Source: a virus. From it: a stretch of 49,240 nucleotides of DNA. The notes below the pieces were generated by a model. That model did not search any database, was not told where the DNA came from, and saw only the letters and a program-made list of their open reading frames with translations. Of the stretch, positions 1-8,774 are shown in pieces. Positions within the stretch are counted from its first letter, which is position 1; every line of letters begins with the position of its first letter. The stretch is from positions 1 to 49,240 of the IMG/VR virus record IMGVR_UViG_3300030613_000002. One strand, written 5' to 3'. A program made the position numbers and the translations under genes.

Positions 1-127
1 AGCGAGGAGTCCGGCTGGATGTTTTGGTGAGGACGCGCGAGCCGAAGGTTCAGACACTTGAGGGGAGGCGTTCTCAGGGTGATCTCGACCGGTTCCTGCG
101 GATACTGGAGAGGGTAGAGCAGGGGAT
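1..127. repeat. Terminal direct repeat, copy A (identical to 49114..49240)
   Basis: By-eye base-for-base match of the first 127 nt to the last 127 nt. Consistent with a circular or terminally redundant genome, or an assembler k-mer overlap. Confidence 0.9.
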
Positions 128-2865: not shown

Positions 2866-3272
2866 ACCCTATAAGCCTAAAAGATACTGTGGAGCGGCCT
2901 CAGTTAGCTTGGCATGTCCACCACGATGTGCTCGTGGAACTGCTCACAGAGGACGCTGAGACGAGACGGCAATACATCCGAGACTATAAACCCATCGAGG
3001 AACAACCGCTTCGCCTACGGTTGTTCAAAATAGTCGTCGGTCACTTGCCGCGCGAAGTTGTGCAGACACGGCAAGCCTACGACCAGGCATGGCAAGCCCA
3101 CGTCCAGGCACTGCAAGCCTACGACCAGGCACTGCAAGCCTGCAACGAGGCATGGCAAGCCTACGACCAGGCATTCACCGACCACAAGGAAGAAGTCGAG
3201 GCGCTCCACCGAATCGAGTGTCCCGATTGTCCCTGGAACGGCAGGAGTATCTTTGAGGAGATGCCGGAATGA
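2862..3272 (+). CDS. hypothetical coiled-coil protein with heptad repeats and a C-terminal CPDCP motif
   Basis: ATGA overlap with the upstream stop. Five 7-aa units: QAYDQAW, QAHVQAL, QAYDQAL, QACNEAW, QAYDQAF. Confidence 0.6.
   Translation: MNPISLKDTVERPQLAWHVHHDVLVELLTEDAETRRQYIRDYKPIEEQPLRLRLFKIVVGHLPREVVQTRQAYDQAWQAHVQALQAYDQALQACNEAWQAYDQAFTDHKEEVEALHRIECPDCPWNGRSIFEEMPE
3072..3176 (+). repeat. 5 x 21-bp imperfect tandem repeat (heptad coding)
   Basis: CAAGCCTACGACCAGGCATGG-like unit repeated five times head to tail. Confidence 0.85.
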
Positions 3273-3475
3273 CAGTCAAAGAGATAGTGCGGGATTACCT
3301 GACGGCGAACGGGTACGATGGTCTATGGAGTGATAGCGGACGATGTGGGTGCGAAGTGGACGACCTTTTTCCATGCCTAGACAGCTGGGGTAACTGCCAG
3401 CCTGGATACAAGCAGCCCTGCGACTGCGGGGAAGGATGCCGCTTTCATATTGGGCCGAGGGAGGTGCCGGTGTGA
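3269..3475 (+). CDS. Cys-rich small protein
   Basis: ATGA overlap with the upstream gene. 68 aa with 8 Cys (CGCE, CLD, CQPG, CDCGEGC). Confidence 0.55.
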   Translation: MTVKEIVRDYLTANGYDGLWSDSGRCGCEVDDLFPCLDSWGNCQPGYKQPCDCGEGCRFHIGPREVPV

Positions 3476-4275
3476 ATCCTTTGCCACGGGACGGGGCGAT
3501 TGGGTGGGCTGACTTCTCGTGGGGCATAGCGTCAGGATGTAGGACGGGGTGTGGTTACTGTTACGCCAGGGTCATCGCCAACAGGTTTAAGCCAAAGGGC
3601 ACGGTGCTGTGGTCGTCGCAGGAGGCAGGGAACGGCAAGTGCTACACGGCGGGGAAGGGTGATGTCTTCCCCTACGGCTTTGCCCCGACCTTCTACCCTC
3701 ATCGCTTGGACGAACCCCTCAAGGTCAAGAAGCCCAGCATGATTTTCGTTTGCAGCATGGGGGAGTTGTTCGGCCCGTGGGTGCCGCTAGACTGGGTAAA
3801 GGCCATTTATGATGTGATGACTGCGTGTGTGGACCATACCTTCATCGTGCTGACGAAATGGCCGGGAGGAATAAGAGACAAACTTCATGGGTTCGAGCCA
3901 GATAAACGGTGGCCTCTTTTCAACTCAAGAGAATCCTACCCGAACATCTGGCACCTGACCAGCGTGGAGGATCAGGCCACCTGGGACAAGCGGGTGCCCG
4001 AGATCCTGAAACTACGGGAACACGGCTGGCCGGTGCTGGGGGTCAGCGTGGAGCCGATGCTGGGGCCGATAGAGCCCCATAGGATAGAGGAACTCGACTG
4101 GGTGATTGTGGGCGGGCAGAGTCCAGCGAGCGCACGGCAACCTGAACATGAATGGGTAATGCCAATCATAGAACAGTGCGGGGTTGAGGGAATACCCTTG
4201 TTTCTCAAGAACAATCTCAAGCCGACGATCAACGGGTCATTGATACAGCAATGGCCGAAAGGGGCACCGGAATGA
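3472..4275 (+). CDS. DUF5131 / phage Gp37-Gp68 family protein
   Basis: N-terminal IGWADFSWGIASGCRTGCGYCYA resembles the family signature (W..W....GC...C..CYA). The GTG at 3472 overlaps the upstream stop (GTGA). Confidence 0.7.
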   Translation: MNPLPRDGAIGWADFSWGIASGCRTGCGYCYARVIANRFKPKGTVLWSSQEAGNGKCYTAGKGDVFPYGFAPTFYPHRLDEPLKVKKPSMIFVCSMGELFGPWVPLDWVKAIYDVMTACVDHTFIVLTKWPGGIRDKLHGFEPDKRWPLFNSRESYPNIWHLTSVEDQATWDKRVPEILKLREHGWPVLGVSVEPMLGPIEPHRIEELDWVIVGGQSPASARQPEHEWVMPIIEQCGVEGIPLFLKNNLKPTINGSLIQQWPKGAPE

Positions 4276-4589
4276 ACAAAATAGATGAACTGATTGACGA
4301 ACTCCGATGCGAGCGCGACCGCCTCAAGGCAGAGGTCAAGACGCTGACGGACGGGGGTGGGATGACCCTCCTAGCAATGGTGAAGGGGATGAAGCGGGGG
4401 CATGAGTGGAAAGAGGTAAGTTATAATAGGCACAAGGATAGACTTCCTGGGAGGGAATGGATAATCTTTTGGCTGTATCGAGAGACGAAATCGTCCTGGC
4501 GATGGAACCACCGGAGGAGCGGCGTAATACAGGAAGGCACTGCCGAGCAAGCCGCGGCAGCCCTTGAGAAGTTCCTGGAGAGGAGGTGA
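4272..4589 (+). CDS. hypothetical protein
   Basis: ATGA overlap with the upstream stop. 105 aa. Confidence 0.5.
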   Translation: MNKIDELIDELRCERDRLKAEVKTLTDGGGMTLLAMVKGMKRGHEWKEVSYNRHKDRLPGREWIIFWLYRETKSSWRWNHRRSGVIQEGTAEQAAAALEKFLERR

Positions 4590-4803: not shown

Positions 4804-4887
4804 ATGAATCCGAAGCATAATCCGCATGATGCGTTATACTGCAACTGCCGTGAATGCAAGGAGAGCCGCATAACACCAAGCACCTGA
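4804..4887 (+). CDS. possible 27-aa Cys-containing micro-ORF
   Basis: The ATG is preceded by AGGAGGTGATGCCC, the same 14-bp block that precedes the next gene. Encodes MNPKHNPHDALYCNCRECKESRITPST. Below the ORF-track size cutoff. Confidence 0.3.
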   Translation: MNPKHNPHDALYCNCRECKESRITPST

Positions 4888-4904
4888 AAGGAGGTGATGC
4901 CCAA

Positions 4905-5258
4905 ATGCCGAAGCATGGAGCCAACTGCACCTGTTGGGCCTGTGTCAACGCGCACGCGATAACACCGTCGGGAGGGCTGCCCGGAGAGAAGATTGAGGGA
5001 GGGCAGGGGGCGCCTGGAATCTGGGAACGTGAGCGGTGCGCAAAGTGTGAGAAACTAGCACTCTGTTTCCTCGGCGTCTGTCCTAAGTGCTGGCCCAAAG
5101 AAACAAGTAAGGGAGGGCAGGAGGTAGTCTTTCGGAGCACGGAACAGTTGAACGAGACATACTGCCCCAAAGCGGCCAACCAAGAGAGGGAGCAACGGAG
5201 GCAAAGATTGTTGCGGGAGAGGCTGGAAAAGATACCTAGGAAGTGGGAGGGGCGATGA
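4905..5258 (+). CDS. Cys-rich (zinc-ribbon-like) hypothetical protein
   Basis: AAAGGAGGTGATGCCCAA precedes the ATG. Motifs CTCWAC and CAKC...CPKC. Confidence 0.55.
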   Translation: MPKHGANCTCWACVNAHAITPSGGLPGEKIEGGQGAPGIWERERCAKCEKLALCFLGVCPKCWPKETSKGGQEVVFRSTEQLNETYCPKAANQEREQRRQRLLRERLEKIPRKWEGR

Positions 5259-7450
5259 GCCAGGTAATCCAGGGCGACGCACTGGCGGTGCTCAAGGGAC
5301 TTCCCACTGAGTCGGTGAATCTGTGCGCCACGAGCCCGCCATACTTCGCCAAGCGAAAATACGGCTGCCCGATGACCTTTGAGGATGGCTGGGTGGGAGA
5401 GTTCGGCCTTGAACCCACCATCGAATCCTACCTGTCGCACCTGTGGGCGGTGTTCGATGAGGTTTGGAGGGTGCTGAGGAAGGATGGGGTGATTTTCTGT
5501 AATTTGGGAGATTCCTATAACTCACATGCTAGCACGGGCAATAACTCACATGCTAGCACGGGCAACAAGTTCGACCACAGTTGGCGTTCGGAAGGTAGAA
5601 GTGCTGCGGATGCTGCTCAAATGAGTCGGCAACCCAACTTGATGCCAGTGCCTGACAAGTCCCTCCTCCTCATCCCGGAACGGTTCATCCTGGGCATGAC
5701 CGACCCTAGCCTGCGGCCCGCCTTGTCGAAGGGGCTTGCCCTTGCCGTTGAGCATGCGTGGATTGCGAGGAACTTTATCGTCTGGCACAAGCCGAACCCG
5801 ATGCCAGAGAGTGTCAGGGATAGGTTTTCCTGTACCTGGGAGCCGGTCTTCTACTTCGCCAAGAGCCAGAAGGTCTGGTTTGACCTCGACGCGGTGCGGA
5901 GGCCATTCTCTGGAGGCACAGCAACGCCCTCACGGAAGTATGCCGACGCCACAATATTCAGCGAACAAAACAGCCAAACCGCAATGGGACAAAGGCGAGA
6001 ATATCCTAGCCCCGCCCGCGCCAAGACCGCCGATGAGGGGCTGTTCAAGCCAACCACCAAGATACCGGCGGAGATATCTGAAAGCATGGGGAGTCCCCGA
6101 GCAAGGGAGCATCGGGATAAGACCCGCTATGAAGACAAGTTCAAGCCACCTGGTGCCGGCCGCAACCCACCTGAACCCGGGGTGGAAGGCCCCTTCCTCC
6201 CCCTCGGAGCGAACCCAGGAGACTTCTTCATTGACGGCGATGACGACTGGTGGGAGATTGCTACCCAGGCTAGGAGTGAAACGGCAAGATTCCGAGGCCG
6301 ACCCGACTATGTGCAAGTGAGTGGCACGACCTACAAAGTGTCAAGAGATTGTCCAGTGCATGGGCATCTTTCTTTGACTGGCACTCCGAATACGGTTTCA
6401 GGTGATGGACAACCAGAGGCTTCCGAGCATGACAGCGCCAGCAATGCCAACGATCGCGATCAAGCGCTTGGATGCGAATCCCCTTCCATTCATTCCCACG
6501 CCCCACAGAAAGAAGCCCCTGGTAGTGCTCGCGGTTCCAATCCTGATGGCACTGACGGGAACAAAACTTCTGCGACTTTGCCAGATACACCCACCGAGGT
6601 TCAAAGGCATCATGGCACTGAAGGCACTCCAAAAGAGGGCGTTCCTTATGGATTGGATTCGCTTCCCCAACAATATGCTCATGTTGCCATAGACCATAGC
6701 AGCGAAACGAGCAAAACGGCCCCCTCTCTTGCGACCATTCCTTCATGTAAGCCTTCCGCCGAAACTGCTTATGGCATTGAACACAGACAAGACTTACGAG
6801 CGTCCGTTGAGCCTCATGCGAGCAAGCCCTTGAGCAATAGCGAGGCTGATAAGTCCGCTTCCAGTGGCGAGTCTGAAAGTCCTTCCCGCATTTCTGACAC
6901 ACAAAGTCTCGAAGCCGCTGAATCCCCATGCCGTCAGGATAACACACCTAAATGCACTTGTCAAGTGGCTACAACTGAACACTTTGCCACCTTCCCCGAT
7001 GAACTTGCCAGGCGGATGATCCTGGTGGGCTGCCCGGAGTGGGTGTGCCGGAAGTGCGGGATGGCAAGGGTGAGGATAAGCCGTCAACAGAAGGATTACC
7101 ACTACTTGAGGACTGATACAGGGAAGCCAAGAAATGTTGCCTTATTAGAAAAGGGTGGTAAGTCGGCATTGCCATCAGGGCAAGAGCACGGCAGACAATA
7201 CAAAGAAGGATATGTAAATGTGCATGAGACCACTGGCTGGACGACCTGCTCCTGCGTGGACGAGGAGGGGAAACATCCGGGATTCAGGCCAGGGGTGGTG
7301 CTCGATCCGTTCGCGGGCCGTGGCACGGTTGGTATCATCGCCAAACGCTATGGCAGGGAGAGCATCCTTGTGGAGATTAAGGAGGAGTATTGTCAGATGA
7401 TAGAGGCGAACCTTGCCGCGGAGCCGGAGCCGCTGAGGATGGAGGAATGA
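5255..7450 (+). CDS. beta-class N4/N6 DNA methyltransferase (SPPY motif IV, probably m4C) with a roughly 230-codon insertion
   Basis: Motifs CATSPPYF (IV), WHKPNPMPESVRDRF, WEPVFYFAK, HFATFPDELARRMI and VLDPFAGRGTVG (motif I). The ATG at 5255 overlaps the upstream stop (ATGA). The segment at about 6270..6966 is low-complexity in this frame and carries a real gene on the other strand. Confidence 0.8.
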   Translation: MSQVIQGDALAVLKGLPTESVNLCATSPPYFAKRKYGCPMTFEDGWVGEFGLEPTIESYLSHLWAVFDEVWRVLRKDGVIFCNLGDSYNSHASTGNNSHASTGNKFDHSWRSEGRSAADAAQMSRQPNLMPVPDKSLLLIPERFILGMTDPSLRPALSKGLALAVEHAWIARNFIVWHKPNPMPESVRDRFSCTWEPVFYFAKSQKVWFDLDAVRRPFSGGTATPSRKYADATIFSEQNSQTAMGQRREYPSPARAKTADEGLFKPTTKIPAEISESMGSPRAREHRDKTRYEDKFKPPGAGRNPPEPGVEGPFLPLGANPGDFFIDGDDDWWEIATQARSETARFRGRPDYVQVSGTTYKVSRDCPVHGHLSLTGTPNTVSGDGQPEASEHDSASNANDRDQALGCESPSIHSHAPQKEAPGSARGSNPDGTDGNKTSATLPDTPTEVQRHHGTEGTPKEGVPYGLDSLPQQYAHVAIDHSSETSKTAPSLATIPSCKPSAETAYGIEHRQDLRASVEPHASKPLSNSEADKSASSGESESPSRISDTQSLEAAESPCRQDNTPKCTCQVATTEHFATFPDELARRMILVGCPEWVCRKCGMARVRISRQQKDYHYLRTDTGKPRNVALLEKGGKSALPSGQEHGRQYKEGYVNVHETTGWTTCSCVDEEGKHPGFRPGVVLDPFAGRGTVGIIAKRYGRESILVEIKEEYCQMIEANLAAEPEPLRMEE
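5517..5564 (+). repeat. Perfect 24-bp tandem duplication inside the methyltransferase
   Basis: ATAACTCACATGCTAGCACGGGCA x2, encoding NSHASTGN twice. Confidence 0.9.
6270..6929 (-). CDS. HNH endonuclease with zinc-ribbon repeats, antisense inside the methyltransferase gene
   Basis: Repeated CxxC...(F/Y)CSxxC units (CQKCGK...YCSRAC, CVQCHK...FCSFRC, CLQCHD...FCSRQC). C-terminal HNH motif: CWRCH...VVHHLKP...NLLTLCRSCHSLAH. ATG at 6929; the track start at 6947 is a GTG that lies upstream of the predicted -10. Confidence 0.8.
   Translation of the reverse strand: MGIQRLRDFVCQKCGKDFQTRHWKRTYQPRYCSRACSHEAQRTLVSLVCVQCHKQFRRKAYMKEWSQERGPFCSFRCYGLWQHEHIVGEANPIHKERPLLECLQCHDAFEPRWVYLAKSQKFCSRQCHQDWNREHYQGLLSVGRGNEWKGIRIQALDRDRWHCWRCHARKPLVVHHLKPYSECQSKKDAHALDNLLTLCRSCHSLAHSRVGLGILPFHS
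6936..6964 (-). promoter_or_regulatory. sigma70-like promoter for the nested HNH gene (near-leaderless)
   Basis: Minus strand reads TTGACA (6964..6959), a 17-nt spacer, TATCCT (6941..6936), then 6 nt to the ATG at 6929. Confidence 0.5.
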
Positions 7451-7451
7451 C

Positions 7452-7679
7452 ATGAAGAAGGAGCAACCGAAACTCACAATTACCATCACCATGAAGGACG
7501 GCGGCCCCGTGCCAGCGAAGTTGCTCTGCAAGGTTGTCAAGAACGCGGTGAAGGCGCTTGAGGCCATCGAGGAGTCCAAGACGGGCAAGAAGGCGGAGCT
7601 CGAATGGGTTCTCACCAGCGTCAAGGAGACACGCGAGGACAAGGACGAAGGCCATGCCGCGCCGCCAGAGAGAGAGTAA
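7452..7679 (+). CDS. hypothetical protein
   Basis: GGAGGAATGAC precedes the ATG. 75 aa, Lys/Glu rich. Confidence 0.55.
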   Translation: MKKEQPKLTITITMKDGGPVPAKLLCKVVKNAVKALEAIEESKTGKKAELEWVLTSVKETREDKDEGHAAPPERE

Positions 7680-7774
7680 CGTGGTCACCTATCTCCCAAA
7701 CGCCCGAACCAGTAGCGGGCCAGGTGTGCGGCGTCAAAGGGCTGCCAGGACTGCTTTGCGGGCCGGAATAAGGC

Positions 7775-7805: not shown

Positions 7806-8774
7806 ATGCGGATATTCAGCCTGTTCGCTGGTATAGGAGGTTTTGAATTTGGACTGCAAGGATGGGGAGAGTGCGTTGGCTACTCCGAAATCGACAAGTG
7901 GGCGACCGGCATCCACGACTACCACTGGCCTGGAGTCCCAAACTTCAGCGACGCCACTACAATCAACCCAGATGATCTTCCAGAGTTTGATCTGCTCTGC
8001 GCTGGATTCCCATGCCAATCATTTAGCATTGCGGGCCGGCGTGAAGGATTTCGGGATGTTAGGGGAACTCTTTTCTTTGAGATCGCCCGAATCGCTGGGG
8101 CTGCGAGACCCGATTATCTTCTCCTTGAAAACGTCAAAGGGCTTCTCGGCCATGATGGAGGAGACACGTTTGCCCAAATCCTTGAGACGCTTTCAAACGT
8201 GGGGTATGACCTGCAATGGCAATGTCTTAACAGCAAGGACTTCGGCGTCCCGCAAAATAGGGAGCGGGTCTTCATTATCGGACATTCTCGAACCGTCGCC
8301 CGCCCCCAAGTATTTCCTCTCGGAAGCGATGGTGCAGTTGCTCCTCAAAAGAGCAAAGAAGTACGGGTGGGATGCCTTAGTGATAGACAAGGAAGAATGC
8401 GGAACAGAGAGTTGATACTCCACACGAACAAGGCCAACATGGTGACTCCTCACGAAGAAGCGCAGGCCCTACGAAGTGGAGCAAGCCACAATTATCAGAC
8501 GGTGGCTAATTGCATTCGCCCCGTCGCCAACAGAAGCGCCATGAATTACGGTTTGCGGCAGGGCGATTCCATCCGCCGTTTGACGCCGTTGGAGTGCGAA
8601 CGGCTTCAAGGGTTCCCTGACGGTTGGACTCGGTGGGCTTTGATTGACGGCAAGAAGGTTGAGGTGTCTGACACGCAGCGTTACAAGTGTCTGGGGAATG
8701 CAGTTACGGTGAACGTGGTGGCGGCGATATGCCTGCCCCTCAGTAGCCCCAGGCATGGCCTAGAAAGGAGATGA
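7806..8774 (+). CDS. dcm: DNA (cytosine-5) methyltransferase
   Basis: Motifs FSLFAGIGGF (I), GFPCQSFS (IV, catalytic Cys), ENVKGL (VI), QNRERVFIIG (VIII), RLTPLECERLQGFPDGWT and GNAVTVNV (X). Confidence 0.93.
   Translation: MRIFSLFAGIGGFEFGLQGWGECVGYSEIDKWATGIHDYHWPGVPNFSDATTINPDDLPEFDLLCAGFPCQSFSIAGRREGFRDVRGTLFFEIARIAGAARPDYLLLENVKGLLGHDGGDTFAQILETLSNVGYDLQWQCLNSKDFGVPQNRERVFIIGHSRTVARPQVFPLGSDGAVAPQKSKEVRVGCLSDRQGRMRNRELILHTNKANMVTPHEEAQALRSGASHNYQTVANCIRPVANRSAMNYGLRQGDSIRRLTPLECERLQGFPDGWTRWALIDGKKVEVSDTQRYKCLGNAVTVNVVAAICLPLSSPRHGLERR
8745..8761. repeat. 17-bp direct repeat, copy 2
   Basis: Identical to 7775..7791. Lies in the last codons of dcm, just before the RBS of the next gene. 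Confidence 0.85.

What the first reader, a model, noticed from the sequence alone, without database searches (positions are those of the whole stretch)
5255..7450. Promoter-bearing HNH cassette inserted antisense inside a DNA methyltransferase, with the host reading frame kept open
The SPPY-type methyltransferase has all its conserved blocks. However, the short linker between WWEIATQ and the H-x-A-x-FP block (here TEHFATFPDEL) is expanded by roughly 230 codons of low-complexity sequence (about 6270..6966).

Exactly that interval carries a convincing HNH endonuclease on the opposite strand (6270..6929, zinc-ribbon repeats plus an HH...N...CH core). It has its own TTGACA-17-TATCCT promoter at 6964..6936 and only 6 nt between the -10 and the ATG.

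Homing endonuclease genes normally sit between genes, in introns, or in inteins (sense strand). Here the cassette is antisense, I recognise no intron features, and the methyltransferase frame runs through without a stop and rejoins the conserved C-terminal half in frame.

Three explanations are possible: (a) the methyltransferase tolerates a large disordered insertion, giving two genes coded on opposite strands of the same DNA; (b) the insert is spliced out; (c) the enzyme works as split halves.

One caveat applies. This GC-rich genome has many long spurious antisense ORFs, so openness alone is weak evidence. The in-frame rejoining at both flanks is the stronger point.
Basis: partly seen in the sequence, partly recalled or inferred. 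Interest (0 to 1): 0.85.

Follow-up and report, generated by a model that had tools for sequence, protein, structure and literature searches.

The report
Antisense HNH gene nested in methyltransferase
A phage DNA methyltransferase gene carries a complete, self-promoted HNH endonuclease gene on its opposite strand, and in 46 related loci that DNA has no stop codons in the methyltransferase frame, so both proteins can apparently be made; this is an antisense variant of the recently described "ShiLan" hidden-HNH insertions.

Summary
The + ORF (ATG 5255..7450) is a PF01555 N4/N6 DNA methyltransferase. Its 5-residue linker between W.I.TQ and HFATFP is expanded to 237 residues. That interval encodes a genuine Zn-ribbon HNH endonuclease on the − strand (6929..6270), with its own TTGACA-17-TATCCT promoter.

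I found 46 unique loci with the same arrangement: same site, same frame relation, and 0 host-frame stops in 7,820 HNH codons (336 expected). All 68 free-standing relatives have stops in that frame. Phe-[IMTNK] dipeptides, which would force a host-frame stop, are absent (0/291 Phe vs 21%).

dN/dS shows purifying selection on both methyltransferase halves and on the HNH frame. The host-frame reading of the insert is neutral and is predicted to be disordered. No intron or intein features were found. The insert is patchily distributed among methyltransferases and its divergence is uncoupled from theirs, which fits a homing element.

The concept is published: the ShiLan domain (Genes 2023, 2025). 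Both published cases are same-strand, with the expression route unknown. The antisense, promoter-bearing family appears undescribed. Verdict: new variant of a known kind. No transcription, translation or cleavage data exist.

The parts
5255..7450 (+). Full-length host gene: beta-class N4/N6 DNA methyltransferase (PF01555), read through the insert as one 731-codon ORF. The ORF is open from GTG 5243; the probable start is ATG 5255.
   Evidence: ORF list. Pfam and PHROG hits. GGAGG then ATG, with ATGA overlap on the upstream ORF's stop. AF2 folds both halves into a confident core.
5255..6268 (+). N-terminal methyltransferase part: motif IV SPPY (about 5333-5344) through the conserved W-W-E-I-A-T-Q motif (Q342 = 6266-6268).
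   Evidence: Alignments with insert-free homologues. Sequence read. In related filled alleles omega = 0.30-0.42.
6269..6979 (+). Host-frame read-through of the linker plus insert (237 codons; S/T/P/G/D/E-rich, stop-free). 83 of 96 parsed homologues have only 5 residues here.
   Evidence: Boundaries. pLDDT about 30 with no secondary structure for residues 370-580. Host-frame omega 0.9-1.6 in related loci. Acidic composition, depleted in R, C, F and W relative to the same frame of free-standing relatives.
6270..6929 (-). HNH endonuclease gene (219 aa). Start ATG 6929-6927; stop TAG 6272-6270, formed on the antisense of host linker codons GCT-AGG. Three N-terminal CxxC...CxxxC zinc-ribbon repeats plus a C-terminal CxxC-HH-N-CxxCH catalytic core.
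   Evidence: PF01844 E 7e-7 and phrog_1271 E 4e-28. Catalytic and zinc ligands invariant in the alignments. AF2 mean pLDDT 84.9. PDB profile hits 5H0M HNH and IscB HNH. HNH-frame omega 0.17-0.22 in related loci.
6936..6964 (-). Sigma-70-type promoter for the HNH gene: -35 TTGACA (6964-6959), 17-nt spacer with TG, -10 TATCCT (6941-6936), then 6 nt to the ATG. This suggests a leaderless or near-leaderless mRNA. The host-frame 'KCTCQ' motif is the reverse complement of this -35 region.
   Evidence: Promoter scan: the only hit in 5000..7700, 10/12 matches. Sequence read. The same layout occurs in L001, L035 and L036/37, and a position-conserved TTGnnn-17-TAnnnT occurs in at least 26 of 39 nested loci against 5% of shuffles.
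6980..7450 (+). C-terminal methyltransferase part: HFATFP (6980-6997), the CxxC zinc cluster, and DPFAGRGT (the FxGxG AdoMet motif), rejoining in frame.
   Evidence: Alignments. PHROG MTase hits at aa 684-724. pLDDT 90-97. omega 0.32-0.36 in related filled alleles.

Best explanation
This is a selfish, probably homing, HNH endonuclease cassette. It carries its own promoter and either a Shine-Dalgarno site or a leaderless start, followed by a Zn-ribbon HNH ORF. It sits antisense at one fixed point of beta-class N4/N6 DNA methyltransferase genes: between the 5-residue linker after W.I.TQ and the His of HFATFP, at the junction of the variable region and the AdoMet-binding half.

The element is not removed by splicing. 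Instead its DNA is dual-coding. The strand opposite the HNH gene has been purged of stop codons in the host frame. Ribosomes translating the methyltransferase mRNA therefore read straight through, producing one polypeptide with a roughly 170-235-residue acidic, disordered loop, and the two catalytic halves can still fold together. The HNH itself is expressed from the opposite strand by its own promoter.

Shown here: recurrence of the arrangement, the fixed site, the fixed frame relation, complete stop exclusion, reciprocal constraint on the HNH protein, purifying selection on the HNH and on both methyltransferase halves, a position-conserved promoter, absence of intron and intein signatures, and a patchy distribution.

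Inferred: that both proteins are actually made, that the methyltransferase stays active, and that the HNH cleaves insert-free alleles, whose conserved ...TQ-linker-CACTTCGCCACCTTCCC site is split by the insert, so as to spread by repair-mediated copying.
For: Identity of both genes.

Same architecture in 46 unique loci from metagenomes and IMG/VR phage contigs, always in frame relation rel0.

Stop exclusion:
- 0 stops in 7,820 codons against 336 expected from 68 free-standing relatives, which have 492 stops in 11,450 codons and none of which is stop-free.
- Synonymous-shuffle P = 0.003-0.008 per locus.
- The other two antisense frames carry 425 and 151 stops.

Reciprocal constraint: F-[IMTNK] occurs at 0/291 Phe in nested genes against 82/390 in free-standing ones, and F-Arg always uses CGN (39/39).

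Selection: omega is 0.30-0.42 for the MTase N-part, 0.32-0.36 for the C-part, 0.17-0.22 for the insert in the HNH frame, and 0.9-1.6 for the insert in the host frame.

Structure: the MTase core has pLDDT above 90 on both sides and the insert about 30; the HNH frame has pLDDT 84.9.

Promoter.

Precise junction: the HNH stop lies 1-4 nt after the TQ codon and is supplied by host linker codons F-[STKN]. The filled-versus-empty comparison places the insert just before the His codon.

Mobility signature:
- 18 of 24 insert-bearing MTases have an insert-free nearest neighbour; at least 20 state changes are needed; the largest all-nested clade has 4 members.
- HNH versus MTase distance R2 = 0.12.
- Filled and empty alleles occur in the same sample.
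- No free-standing close relative of the HNH was found.

No intron or other RNA family.

Published same-strand precedent with the same evolutionary pattern: PMC11855218 and PMC9957025.
Against: There are no expression, proteomic, methylation or cleavage data for any member. Everything rests on sequence evolution and prediction.

The stop-free frame could be maintained to avoid transcriptional polarity on downstream genes rather than to keep the methyltransferase active. The purifying selection on the C-terminal half argues against that but does not exclude it.

A 230-residue insertion directly before the AdoMet-binding motif might impair catalysis. Low pLDDT is only a proxy for disorder.

The filled and empty allele pairs I recovered are only about 46-62% identical in flanking DNA, so no recent homing event was caught.

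The NJ tree and p-distances are crude. The insert-free comparison set was chosen by similarity to the window protein, so patchiness could partly reflect repeated loss.

The composition difference of the read-through peptide is confounded by HNH subfamily.

The strict promoter pattern is seen in about two thirds of loci, not all.
Confidence: 0.74

Rival explanations
1. A domesticated, vertically inherited nested gene pair. The HNH is no longer, or never was, a homing enzyme. It serves the phage, for example in terminase-associated cos cleavage or host DNA degradation. The patchy distribution reflects repeated loss and recombination of methyltransferase genes.
For: The best PDB sequence match is the phage GVE2 HNH 5H0M, which the ShiLan authors cite for HNH enzymes that aid terminases in DNA packaging (PMC11855218). 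In L002 the host methyltransferase lies between the small and large terminase genes. One PHROG hit is annotated as terminase small subunit. Filled and empty alleles are old relative to each other. The HNH is under clear purifying selection.
Against: In the window the locus sits in the replication module, about 13 kb from the terminase. All 46 close relatives occupy the identical site in very different methyltransferases, including fusions of 850-1126 aa. HNH and host distances are uncorrelated (R2 0.12). Most homologous methyltransferases lack the insert (83 of 96). A useful phage gene would not need to live inside another gene at a conserved motif, whereas that is typical homing-endonuclease behaviour.
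Confidence: 0.14
2. A nested restriction-modification or addiction module. The HNH is the restriction partner of the methyltransferase that contains it, and antisense nesting couples their expression.
For: HNH-type restriction enzymes exist; PacI is cited as one in PMC11855218. Some sources name relatives 'McrA'. Convergent antisense transcription could set the relative timing of the two genes. The pair is physically inseparable, which would suit an addiction module.
Against: Matched specificity predicts co-divergence of the HNH with the methyltransferase, yet distances are uncorrelated and nearest methyltransferase relatives lack the HNH. Insert-free orphan methyltransferases are the norm in this family. 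The HNH has tandem zinc-ribbon DNA-binding modules, and zinc-finger domains flanking an HNH core are also what the published homing-type ShiLan element has. The insertion site is a conserved catalytic motif, not a regulatory junction.
Confidence: 0.06
3. The insert is removed before the protein functions: an unrecognised intron, an atypical intein, or translational bypassing.
For: Insertion at a highly conserved motif is also typical of introns and inteins. The ShiLan authors could not fully exclude splicing experimentally.
Against: No Rfam family, including group I and II introns, at E<=1 on either strand. No Hint/intein domain at E<=0.1. The +1 residue is His, whereas the ShiLan authors state that known intein splicing mechanisms require Thr, Ser or Cys there (PMC11855218). 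The host-frame amino-acid sequence is unconstrained (omega about 1) and predicted unfolded, so it cannot encode a conserved splicing domain. RNA splicing or bypassing would remove the need for 7,820 stop-free codons.
Confidence: 0.03
4. The methyltransferase is dead or works as two separate polypeptides, and the open frame is incidental.
For: Gene callers sometimes split such genes (L094). The database copy of the window protein was called from an internal Met (P0001). I recall from general knowledge, not checked here, that phage genes split by free-standing endonuclease genes can stay functional.
Against: Zero stops in 46 of 46 loci against 0 of 68 controls cannot be incidental. Both halves show omega of about 0.3-0.4 and keep all catalytic motifs. 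AF2 assembles the two halves into one confident fold.
Confidence: 0.02

Closest known systems
ShiLan domain: hidden HNH insertion in mycobacteriophage DNA methylase gp65 (Gosselin et al. 2023, PMC9957025; Arsenault, Gosselin & Gogarten 2025, PMC11855218)
   Same: An insertion of about 200 codons at a conserved site of a phage DNA methylase. It has no stop codons in the host frame and no intron or intein signatures. It hides a Zn-finger HNH endonuclease in another reading frame, the host-frame peptide is predicted unstructured, and the distribution is patchy with element and host distances uncorrelated (R2 0.001-0.12 there, 0.12 here).
   Different: The ShiLan HNH is on the same strand (+3 frame, GTG 18 bp into the insert, TAA in the last 4 nt), and its expression route is an open question; leaderless internal initiation was proposed. 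Here the HNH is on the opposite strand with its own promoter. The two HNH proteins are not detectably similar: tblastn of the window HNH finds no mycobacteriophage hit at E<=1e-3. The domain order also differs (central HNH there, C-terminal HNH after three Zn ribbons here). I could not retrieve ShiLan gp65 to compare methylase families and sites.
Pacc40 gp60 hidden ORF (same 2025 paper)
   Same: An in-frame-open insertion in a gene annotated 'DNA methylase N-4' that hides a 159-aa nuclease-like ORF.
   Different: I checked the record. The hidden ORF (L181 5866..6345) is on the same strand as gp60 and lies in the helicase part of a 1341-aa helicase-methylase fusion that also contains an intein. 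The site, orientation and ORF family all differ.
Inteins and group I intron-encoded homing endonucleases (for example I-HmuI and I-PfoP3I, PMC3428280)
   Same: A selfish endonuclease gene lodged at a conserved motif of a conserved gene, with the host function preserved. It is expected to spread by cleavage of empty alleles.
   Different: Those elements restore the host product by protein or RNA splicing and are read on the sense strand. Here nothing is spliced. The host protein keeps the insert, and the element pays instead by keeping its antisense strand stop-free.
Free-standing homing endonuclease genes that split phage genes into pieces (recalled from general knowledge, for example mobE in Aeromonas phage Aeh1 nrdA; not checked here)
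   Same: A stand-alone endonuclease gene with its own expression signals inserted inside a coding gene that remains functional.
   Different: Those create two separate ORFs with a stop and a restart. Here the host ORF is continuous in 46 of 46 loci.
Zn-ribbon HNH endonucleases of phages, including terminase-associated ones (Xu et al. 2012, PMC3592412; PDB 5H0M)
   Same: The same catalytic fold with [CxxC]2 zinc site and additional zinc-ribbon modules. 5H0M is the best PDB sequence match.
   Different: Those are ordinary stand-alone genes next to cos and terminase genes. Free-standing relatives of this HNH carry a stop about every 23 codons in the frame that is open here.
Long antisense overlapping genes proposed in bacteria (for example E. 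coli O157:H7, PMC9927249)
   Same: Two proteins encoded on opposite strands of the same DNA over hundreds of nucleotides.
   Different: Those candidates arose by overprinting and rest on expression data with weak conservation. Here a pre-existing gene was inserted, and the evidence is comparative (46 loci) with no expression data.

Membership tests
ShiLan-type hidden-HNH insertion element (PMC11855218) | Insertion at a conserved site inside a phage DNA methylase gene | tested here: met
   The insert lies between the W.I.TQ-linker and HFATFP of a PF01555 methylase. 83 of 96 parsed homologues have 5 residues there. The window is a phage genome.
ShiLan-type hidden-HNH insertion element (PMC11855218) | No stop codons when the insertion is read in the host frame | tested here: met
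   0 stops in 46 of 46 loci (7,820 codons), against 336 expected.
ShiLan-type hidden-HNH insertion element (PMC11855218) | HNH ORF in an alternative frame of the same strand (+3; GTG 18 bp in; TAA within the last 4 nt) | tested here: not met
   The HNH is on the opposite strand in every locus. Both published examples are same-strand.
ShiLan-type hidden-HNH insertion element (PMC11855218) | Patchy distribution, with element history uncoupled from methylase history | tested here: met
   18 of 24 nearest neighbours are insert-free and at least 20 state changes are needed. R2 = 0.12.
ShiLan-type hidden-HNH insertion element (PMC11855218) | Sequence homology of the HNH or the host methylase to ShiLan gp65 | tested here: inconclusive
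   tblastn of the window HNH against 50,697 phage records gives no mycobacteriophage hit at E<=1e-3. The window MTase does hit 92 mycobacteriophage records over its N-terminal third. ShiLan itself was not retrieved; one accession guess was wrong.
HNH endonuclease (PF01844, beta-beta-alpha-Me) | HH...N...H catalytic motif with a CxxC/CxxC zinc site, and a significant profile match | tested here: met
   PF01844 E 7e-7 and phrog_1271 E 4e-28. C163, C166, H175, H176, N194, C199 and H203 are invariant and H207 is conserved in at least 90% of 38 sequences. AF2 pLDDT 84.9 with local Foldseek HNH matches.
Beta-class N4/N6 DNA methyltransferase (PF01555) | Motif IV (S/D)PPY at the N-terminus, FxGxG AdoMet motif at the C-terminus, and a profile match above the gathering score | tested here: met
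   113.8 bits against a cut-off of 26.7. SPPY at residues 31-34 and DPFAGRGT at 688-695.
Homing endonuclease (functional definition) | Cleaves the insert-free allele at or near the insertion site and is copied in by repair | not testable with these tools
   Only indirect evidence: a fixed site in divergent hosts, patchiness, co-occurring filled and empty alleles in one sample, and a conserved target DNA that the insert splits.
Intein | Hint splicing blocks in the host frame; Cys/Ser/Thr at +1; conserved sense-frame protein | tested here: not met
   No Hint-family Pfam hit at E<=0.1. The +1 residue is His580. Host-frame omega is 0.9-1.6 and pLDDT about 30.
Group I / group II intron | Recognisable ribozyme core | tested here: not met
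   cmscan of 5000..7700 on both strands against all of Rfam 15 gives no match at E<=1. A universal open frame would be unnecessary for an intron.
Type II restriction-modification pair | Endonuclease and methyltransferase with matched specificity, inherited together | tested here: not met
   Co-inheritance fails: distances are uncorrelated and the closest methyltransferases lack the HNH. Specificity itself cannot be tested here.

The most novel reading that the evidence does not exclude
This family represents a distinct, widespread way for a selfish endonuclease gene to live inside a protein-coding gene, alongside introns, inteins and gene-splitting free-standing elements. The insertion is antisense and dual-coding. 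The element brings its own promoter, borrows its stop codon from the host linker, and has evolved, down to forbidden dipeptides in its own protein, so that the host ribosome reads through it as a harmless acidic loop. Convergent transcription from the embedded promoter may additionally make HNH and methyltransferase expression mutually antagonistic. That would make it one of the best comparatively supported long (about 200-codon) antisense gene overlaps in prokaryotic viruses.
Probability: 0.6. Interest if true: 0.8.

Novelty: new variant of a known kind. Interest (0 to 1): 0.7.

Why it matters
Homing endonuclease genes are normally thought to survive inside genes only by hitch-hiking on a splicing element. 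The ShiLan papers raised a third possibility, tolerated read-through, from about ten mycobacteriophages. They left open whether the open frame is selected and how the hidden enzyme is expressed.

This family bears on both questions.
- **Selection on the open frame.** It gives statistically decisive evidence (0 versus 336 expected stops, and forbidden dipeptides).
- **Expression.** It suggests a simple route: an own promoter on the opposite strand.

It also supplies a clean natural example of a fully overlapped antisense gene pair whose two-way constraint can be measured. That is useful for the contested field of antisense overlapping genes, and as a warning for gene callers, which annotate only one of the two genes. 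Finally, it marks a permissive loop in beta-class methyltransferases that tolerates more than 200 residues, which could be used for engineering.

Tried and rejected
- **Insert-peptide profile search.** Searching the 5.8-billion-protein index with the three sense-frame insert peptides returned nothing, not even the known carriers. This was probably low-complexity masking. I treated it as uninformative and replaced it with DNA-level scans and an exhaustive phmmer run.
- **First IMG/VR scan.** With a 3-sequence HNH alignment it found only distant free-standing relatives. These became controls. A second scan with 38 sequences found six nested loci.
- **Genome collection.** It yielded only two distant, non-nested hits, so no cultured host is known.
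- **Deposited phages.** Neither blastn nor tblastn found a nested example.
- **Foldseek on the whole HNH model.** It gave no significant global match, because the model is beads on a string (pTM 0.45). Only local HNH hits appeared.
- **Failed scripts.** My first promoter-anchoring regex was wrong and was redone.
- **ShiLan accession.** My guess returned phage WIVsmall. ShiLan itself was not compared.
- **Trivial antisense-frame explanation.** Rejected: the host uses rel0, not rel2.
- **Assembly artefact.** Rejected: an identical protein occurs on an independent JGI contig.
- **L064 as a free-standing, stop-free exception.** Rejected: it is nested in a 698-aa methyltransferase ORF.

Full report
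**What is in the window.** The + strand carries one ORF from 5243 to 7450. Its probable start is ATG 5255, which follows GGAGG and overlaps the stop of the upstream ORF as ATGA. The protein matches PF01555 (N6_N4_Mtase, 113.8 bits) in two separated stretches and several PHROG DNA methyltransferase families. On the − strand, ORF 6270..6947 (probable ATG 6929) matches PF01844 HNH (E 7e-7) and phrog_1271 HNH endonuclease (E 4e-28). It has three CxxC…CxxxC zinc-ribbon repeats and a CxxC-HH-N-CxxCH core. The window is a phage genome. The locus lies in the replication module (C5 methyltransferase, O-like initiator, DnaB helicase), about 13 kb upstream of the large terminase and portal genes.

**Boundaries of the insert.** Insert-free homologues read W-x-I-x-T-Q, five residues, then H-F-A-T-F-P; 83 of 96 parsed homologues have exactly five residues there. 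The window has 237 residues between Q342 (6266-6268) and H580 (6980). Comparing filled alleles with their closest empty alleles (L001 vs L092; L002 vs L093) shows that the native linker is retained on the 5' side (TQ-PFSGA-[insert]-HFATFP against TK-PYSGA-HFATFP). The insertion point is therefore immediately before the His codon. The HNH stop codon lies 1-4 nt after the TQ codon in nearly all parsed loci. It is formed on the antisense of the host's own linker codons, usually Phe-[Ser/Thr/Lys/Asn] (TTT-Axx gives TAA); in the window GCT-AGG gives TAG.

**Is the open frame chance?** No. HNH codon position 1 pairs with host codon position 1 (rel0). This is not the codon-opposed frame (rel2) that is often spuriously open. 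Synonymous shuffling of the HNH predicts 3.5-4 host-frame stops and gives P(open) of 0.008, 0.003 and 0.005 for the window and two distant homologues.

Using HNH alignments, I scanned metagenome, genome and IMG/VR collections and followed called HNH proteins back to their contigs. Every close relative (31-54% identity) is nested antisense in a PF01555-type ORF, at the same site and in rel0. After removing duplicates there are 46 nested loci with 0 host-frame stops in 7,820 HNH codons. In contrast, 68 free-standing, more distant relatives have 492 stops in 11,450 codons of the same frame, and none is stop-free. At that rate 336 stops would be expected in the nested set. In the nested genes the two other antisense frames carry 425 and 151 stops.

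The constraint also reaches the HNH protein. In rel0 a Phe codon followed by any A-starting codon makes a host stop. Phe-[Ile/Met/Thr/Asn/Lys] dipeptides occur at 0 of 291 Phe in nested genes and at 82 of 390 in free-standing ones. Phe-Arg always uses CGN in nested genes (39/39).

**Which frame is selected?** Between loci the HNH protein is more conserved (47/33/32% identity) than the host-frame peptide (32/24/23%). Nei-Gojobori estimates on three related filled alleles gave the following:

| Region | ω |
|---|---|
| Methyltransferase N-part | 0.30-0.42 |
| Methyltransferase C-part | 0.32-0.36 |
| Insert, HNH frame | 0.17-0.22 |
| Insert, host frame | 0.9-1.6 |

So both enzymes are under purifying selection, including the methyltransferase half downstream of the insert. 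The read-through peptide is free to vary as long as it contains no stop.

AlphaFold2 agrees. The methyltransferase core is confident on both sides (pLDDT 90-97), while residues 370-580 have pLDDT of about 30 and no secondary structure. The same DNA read in the HNH frame gives mean pLDDT 84.9. The read-through peptide is acidic (D+E 13.1% vs K+R 9.2%) and depleted in Arg, Cys, Phe and Trp relative to the same frame of GC-matched free-standing relatives, which would be strongly basic. This suggests extra tuning, but it is confounded by HNH subfamily.

**Expression signals.** Directly after the antisense of the host His codon (…GGCGAAGTG), most loci carry TTGACT/TTGTCT-N17-(TG)nTATAAT/TAGAAT. The −35 typically starts 2 nt after the His codon, followed by AGGAG(G) and the ATG. 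Counting cases visible that my anchor missed, at least 26 of 39 loci fit TTGnnn-16..18-TAnnnT, against 5% of shuffles. The window, L001 and L036/37 instead have the start codon 6 nt after the −10, a leaderless-like layout. The host-frame motif 'KCTCQ' shared by the window and L001 is simply the reverse complement of this −35 region.

**Splicing alternatives.** Rfam (4,227 families, both strands, E≤1) finds nothing in 5000..7700. No Hint/intein domain is detected. The residue after the insert is His, whereas the ShiLan authors state that known intein splicing mechanisms need Thr, Ser or Cys at that position. The host-frame peptide is neither conserved nor folded. Splicing or split-gene models also give no reason for a universally open frame.

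**Mobility.** On a 268-column core alignment of 24 complete insert-bearing and 109 insert-free methyltransferases, 18 of 24 carriers have an insert-free nearest neighbour. At least 20 gains or losses are required, and the largest all-carrier clade has 4 members. HNH and host distances are nearly uncorrelated (R² 0.12; r 0.13 without near-identical pairs). A filled allele (L001) and its closest empty allele (L092) come from the same metagenome sample. Hosts range from 494 to 1126 aa, including N-terminal fusions. No close free-standing copy of this HNH was found. This is the pattern expected of a homing element whose target, the conserved DNA encoding TQ-linker-HFATFP, is split by its own insertion. 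However, the allele pairs I recovered are old (46-62% flank identity), and cleavage is untested.

**Comparison with what is known.** Full-text search found two papers from the Gogarten laboratory. Gosselin et al. 2023 (PMC9957025) described the 'ShiLan domain', a 202-aa stop-free insertion with a patchy distribution in mycobacteriophage methylases. Arsenault et al. 2025 (PMC11855218) showed that it hides a 195-aa HNH endonuclease in the +3 frame of the same strand. They found no intron or intein features, predicted a looped-out structure, and left open how the HNH is translated. The paper does not mention an antisense case. I checked its second example, Pacc40 gp60, and its hidden ORF is also same-strand. 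The window's HNH has no detectable similarity to any mycobacteriophage sequence. The present family therefore shares the principle (tolerated read-through of a selfish HNH insert in a phage methylase) but differs in strand, in having its own promoter, and in HNH lineage and architecture. It is also supported by a much larger comparative set. An exhaustive phmmer search with the poorly conserved sense peptide still finds 21 cluster representatives at E≤1e-3, mostly 515-868 aa.

**Verdict.** Novelty: a new variant of a known kind. Interest is fairly high. The antisense solution is unexpected. The evidence for selection on both strands is unusually clean. It also suggests an answer to the expression problem raised for ShiLan-type elements. 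All functional steps (transcription of both strands, full-length translation, retained methylation, site-specific cleavage) remain inferences.

Noticed in passing
L094 2459-5083 (= L095); ENA ERZ28616731 scaffold_1630: One PF01555 methyltransferase carries two HNH insertions. One is the antisense nested HNH (3001-3507). The other is a second, same-strand, out-of-frame HNH (3808-4557, PF01844 + HNH_5) further upstream, which looks ShiLan-like. The host frame is stop-free across both inserts (683 aa), except for a single in-frame stop at 4508-4510 that separates the N-terminal fragment.
   Followed up: partly
window 7806-8774 (+) and 7452-7679 (+): A second DNA methyltransferase of the C5-cytosine type (phrog_116, E 8e-93) lies just downstream of the N4/N6 enzyme, after a small 75-aa ORF. 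The phage therefore carries two adjacent orphan methyltransferases.
   Followed up: partly
window 4854-5258 (+): The upstream 134-aa ORF is Cys-rich (CTCWAC...CAKCEK...CPKC) and ends in an ATGA overlap with the methyltransferase start codon, which suggests translational coupling.
   Followed up: no
window 5915-6240 (+), MTase residues about 225-333: A second low-confidence, variable stretch (pLDDT about 40) precedes W.I.TQ. It contains motifs (AKTADE..FKP..PEPG..GANPGD) shared with only some homologues (P0004, P0027; P0004 has GANPGD twice). It is probably the variable target-recognition region.
   Followed up: no
P0027 (761 aa) and P0057 (547 aa, 241 residues between the motifs): Other homologues have large insertions at or near the same linker. 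P0027's roughly 300-residue insert looks unrelated in the host frame and lies just upstream of the W.I motif. Their opposite strands were not examined for hidden genes.
   Followed up: no
Phage records H36 (Synechococcus phage S-EIVl, 54972-55538) and H39-H41 (Haloarcula HVTV-1, 61739-62308): Distant relatives of this HNH lie under, or overlap, features annotated as terminase large subunit. This hints at further endonuclease insertions (intein, intron or hidden ORF) in other phage genes.
   Followed up: no
L001 802-1488 and L092 1383-2027: In the sample that holds both filled and empty alleles, each methyltransferase is adjacent to a second, shorter PF01555 gene (228 and 214 aa), but on opposite sides: upstream in L001 and downstream in L092.
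   Followed up: no
P0001: Gene callers annotate only one partner of the pair. On long contigs it is the methyltransferase (the window's copy was called from an internal Met, 609 aa). On short or broken contigs it is the HNH, sometimes named 'McrA'. The nested arrangement is therefore invisible in protein databases.
   Followed up: yes
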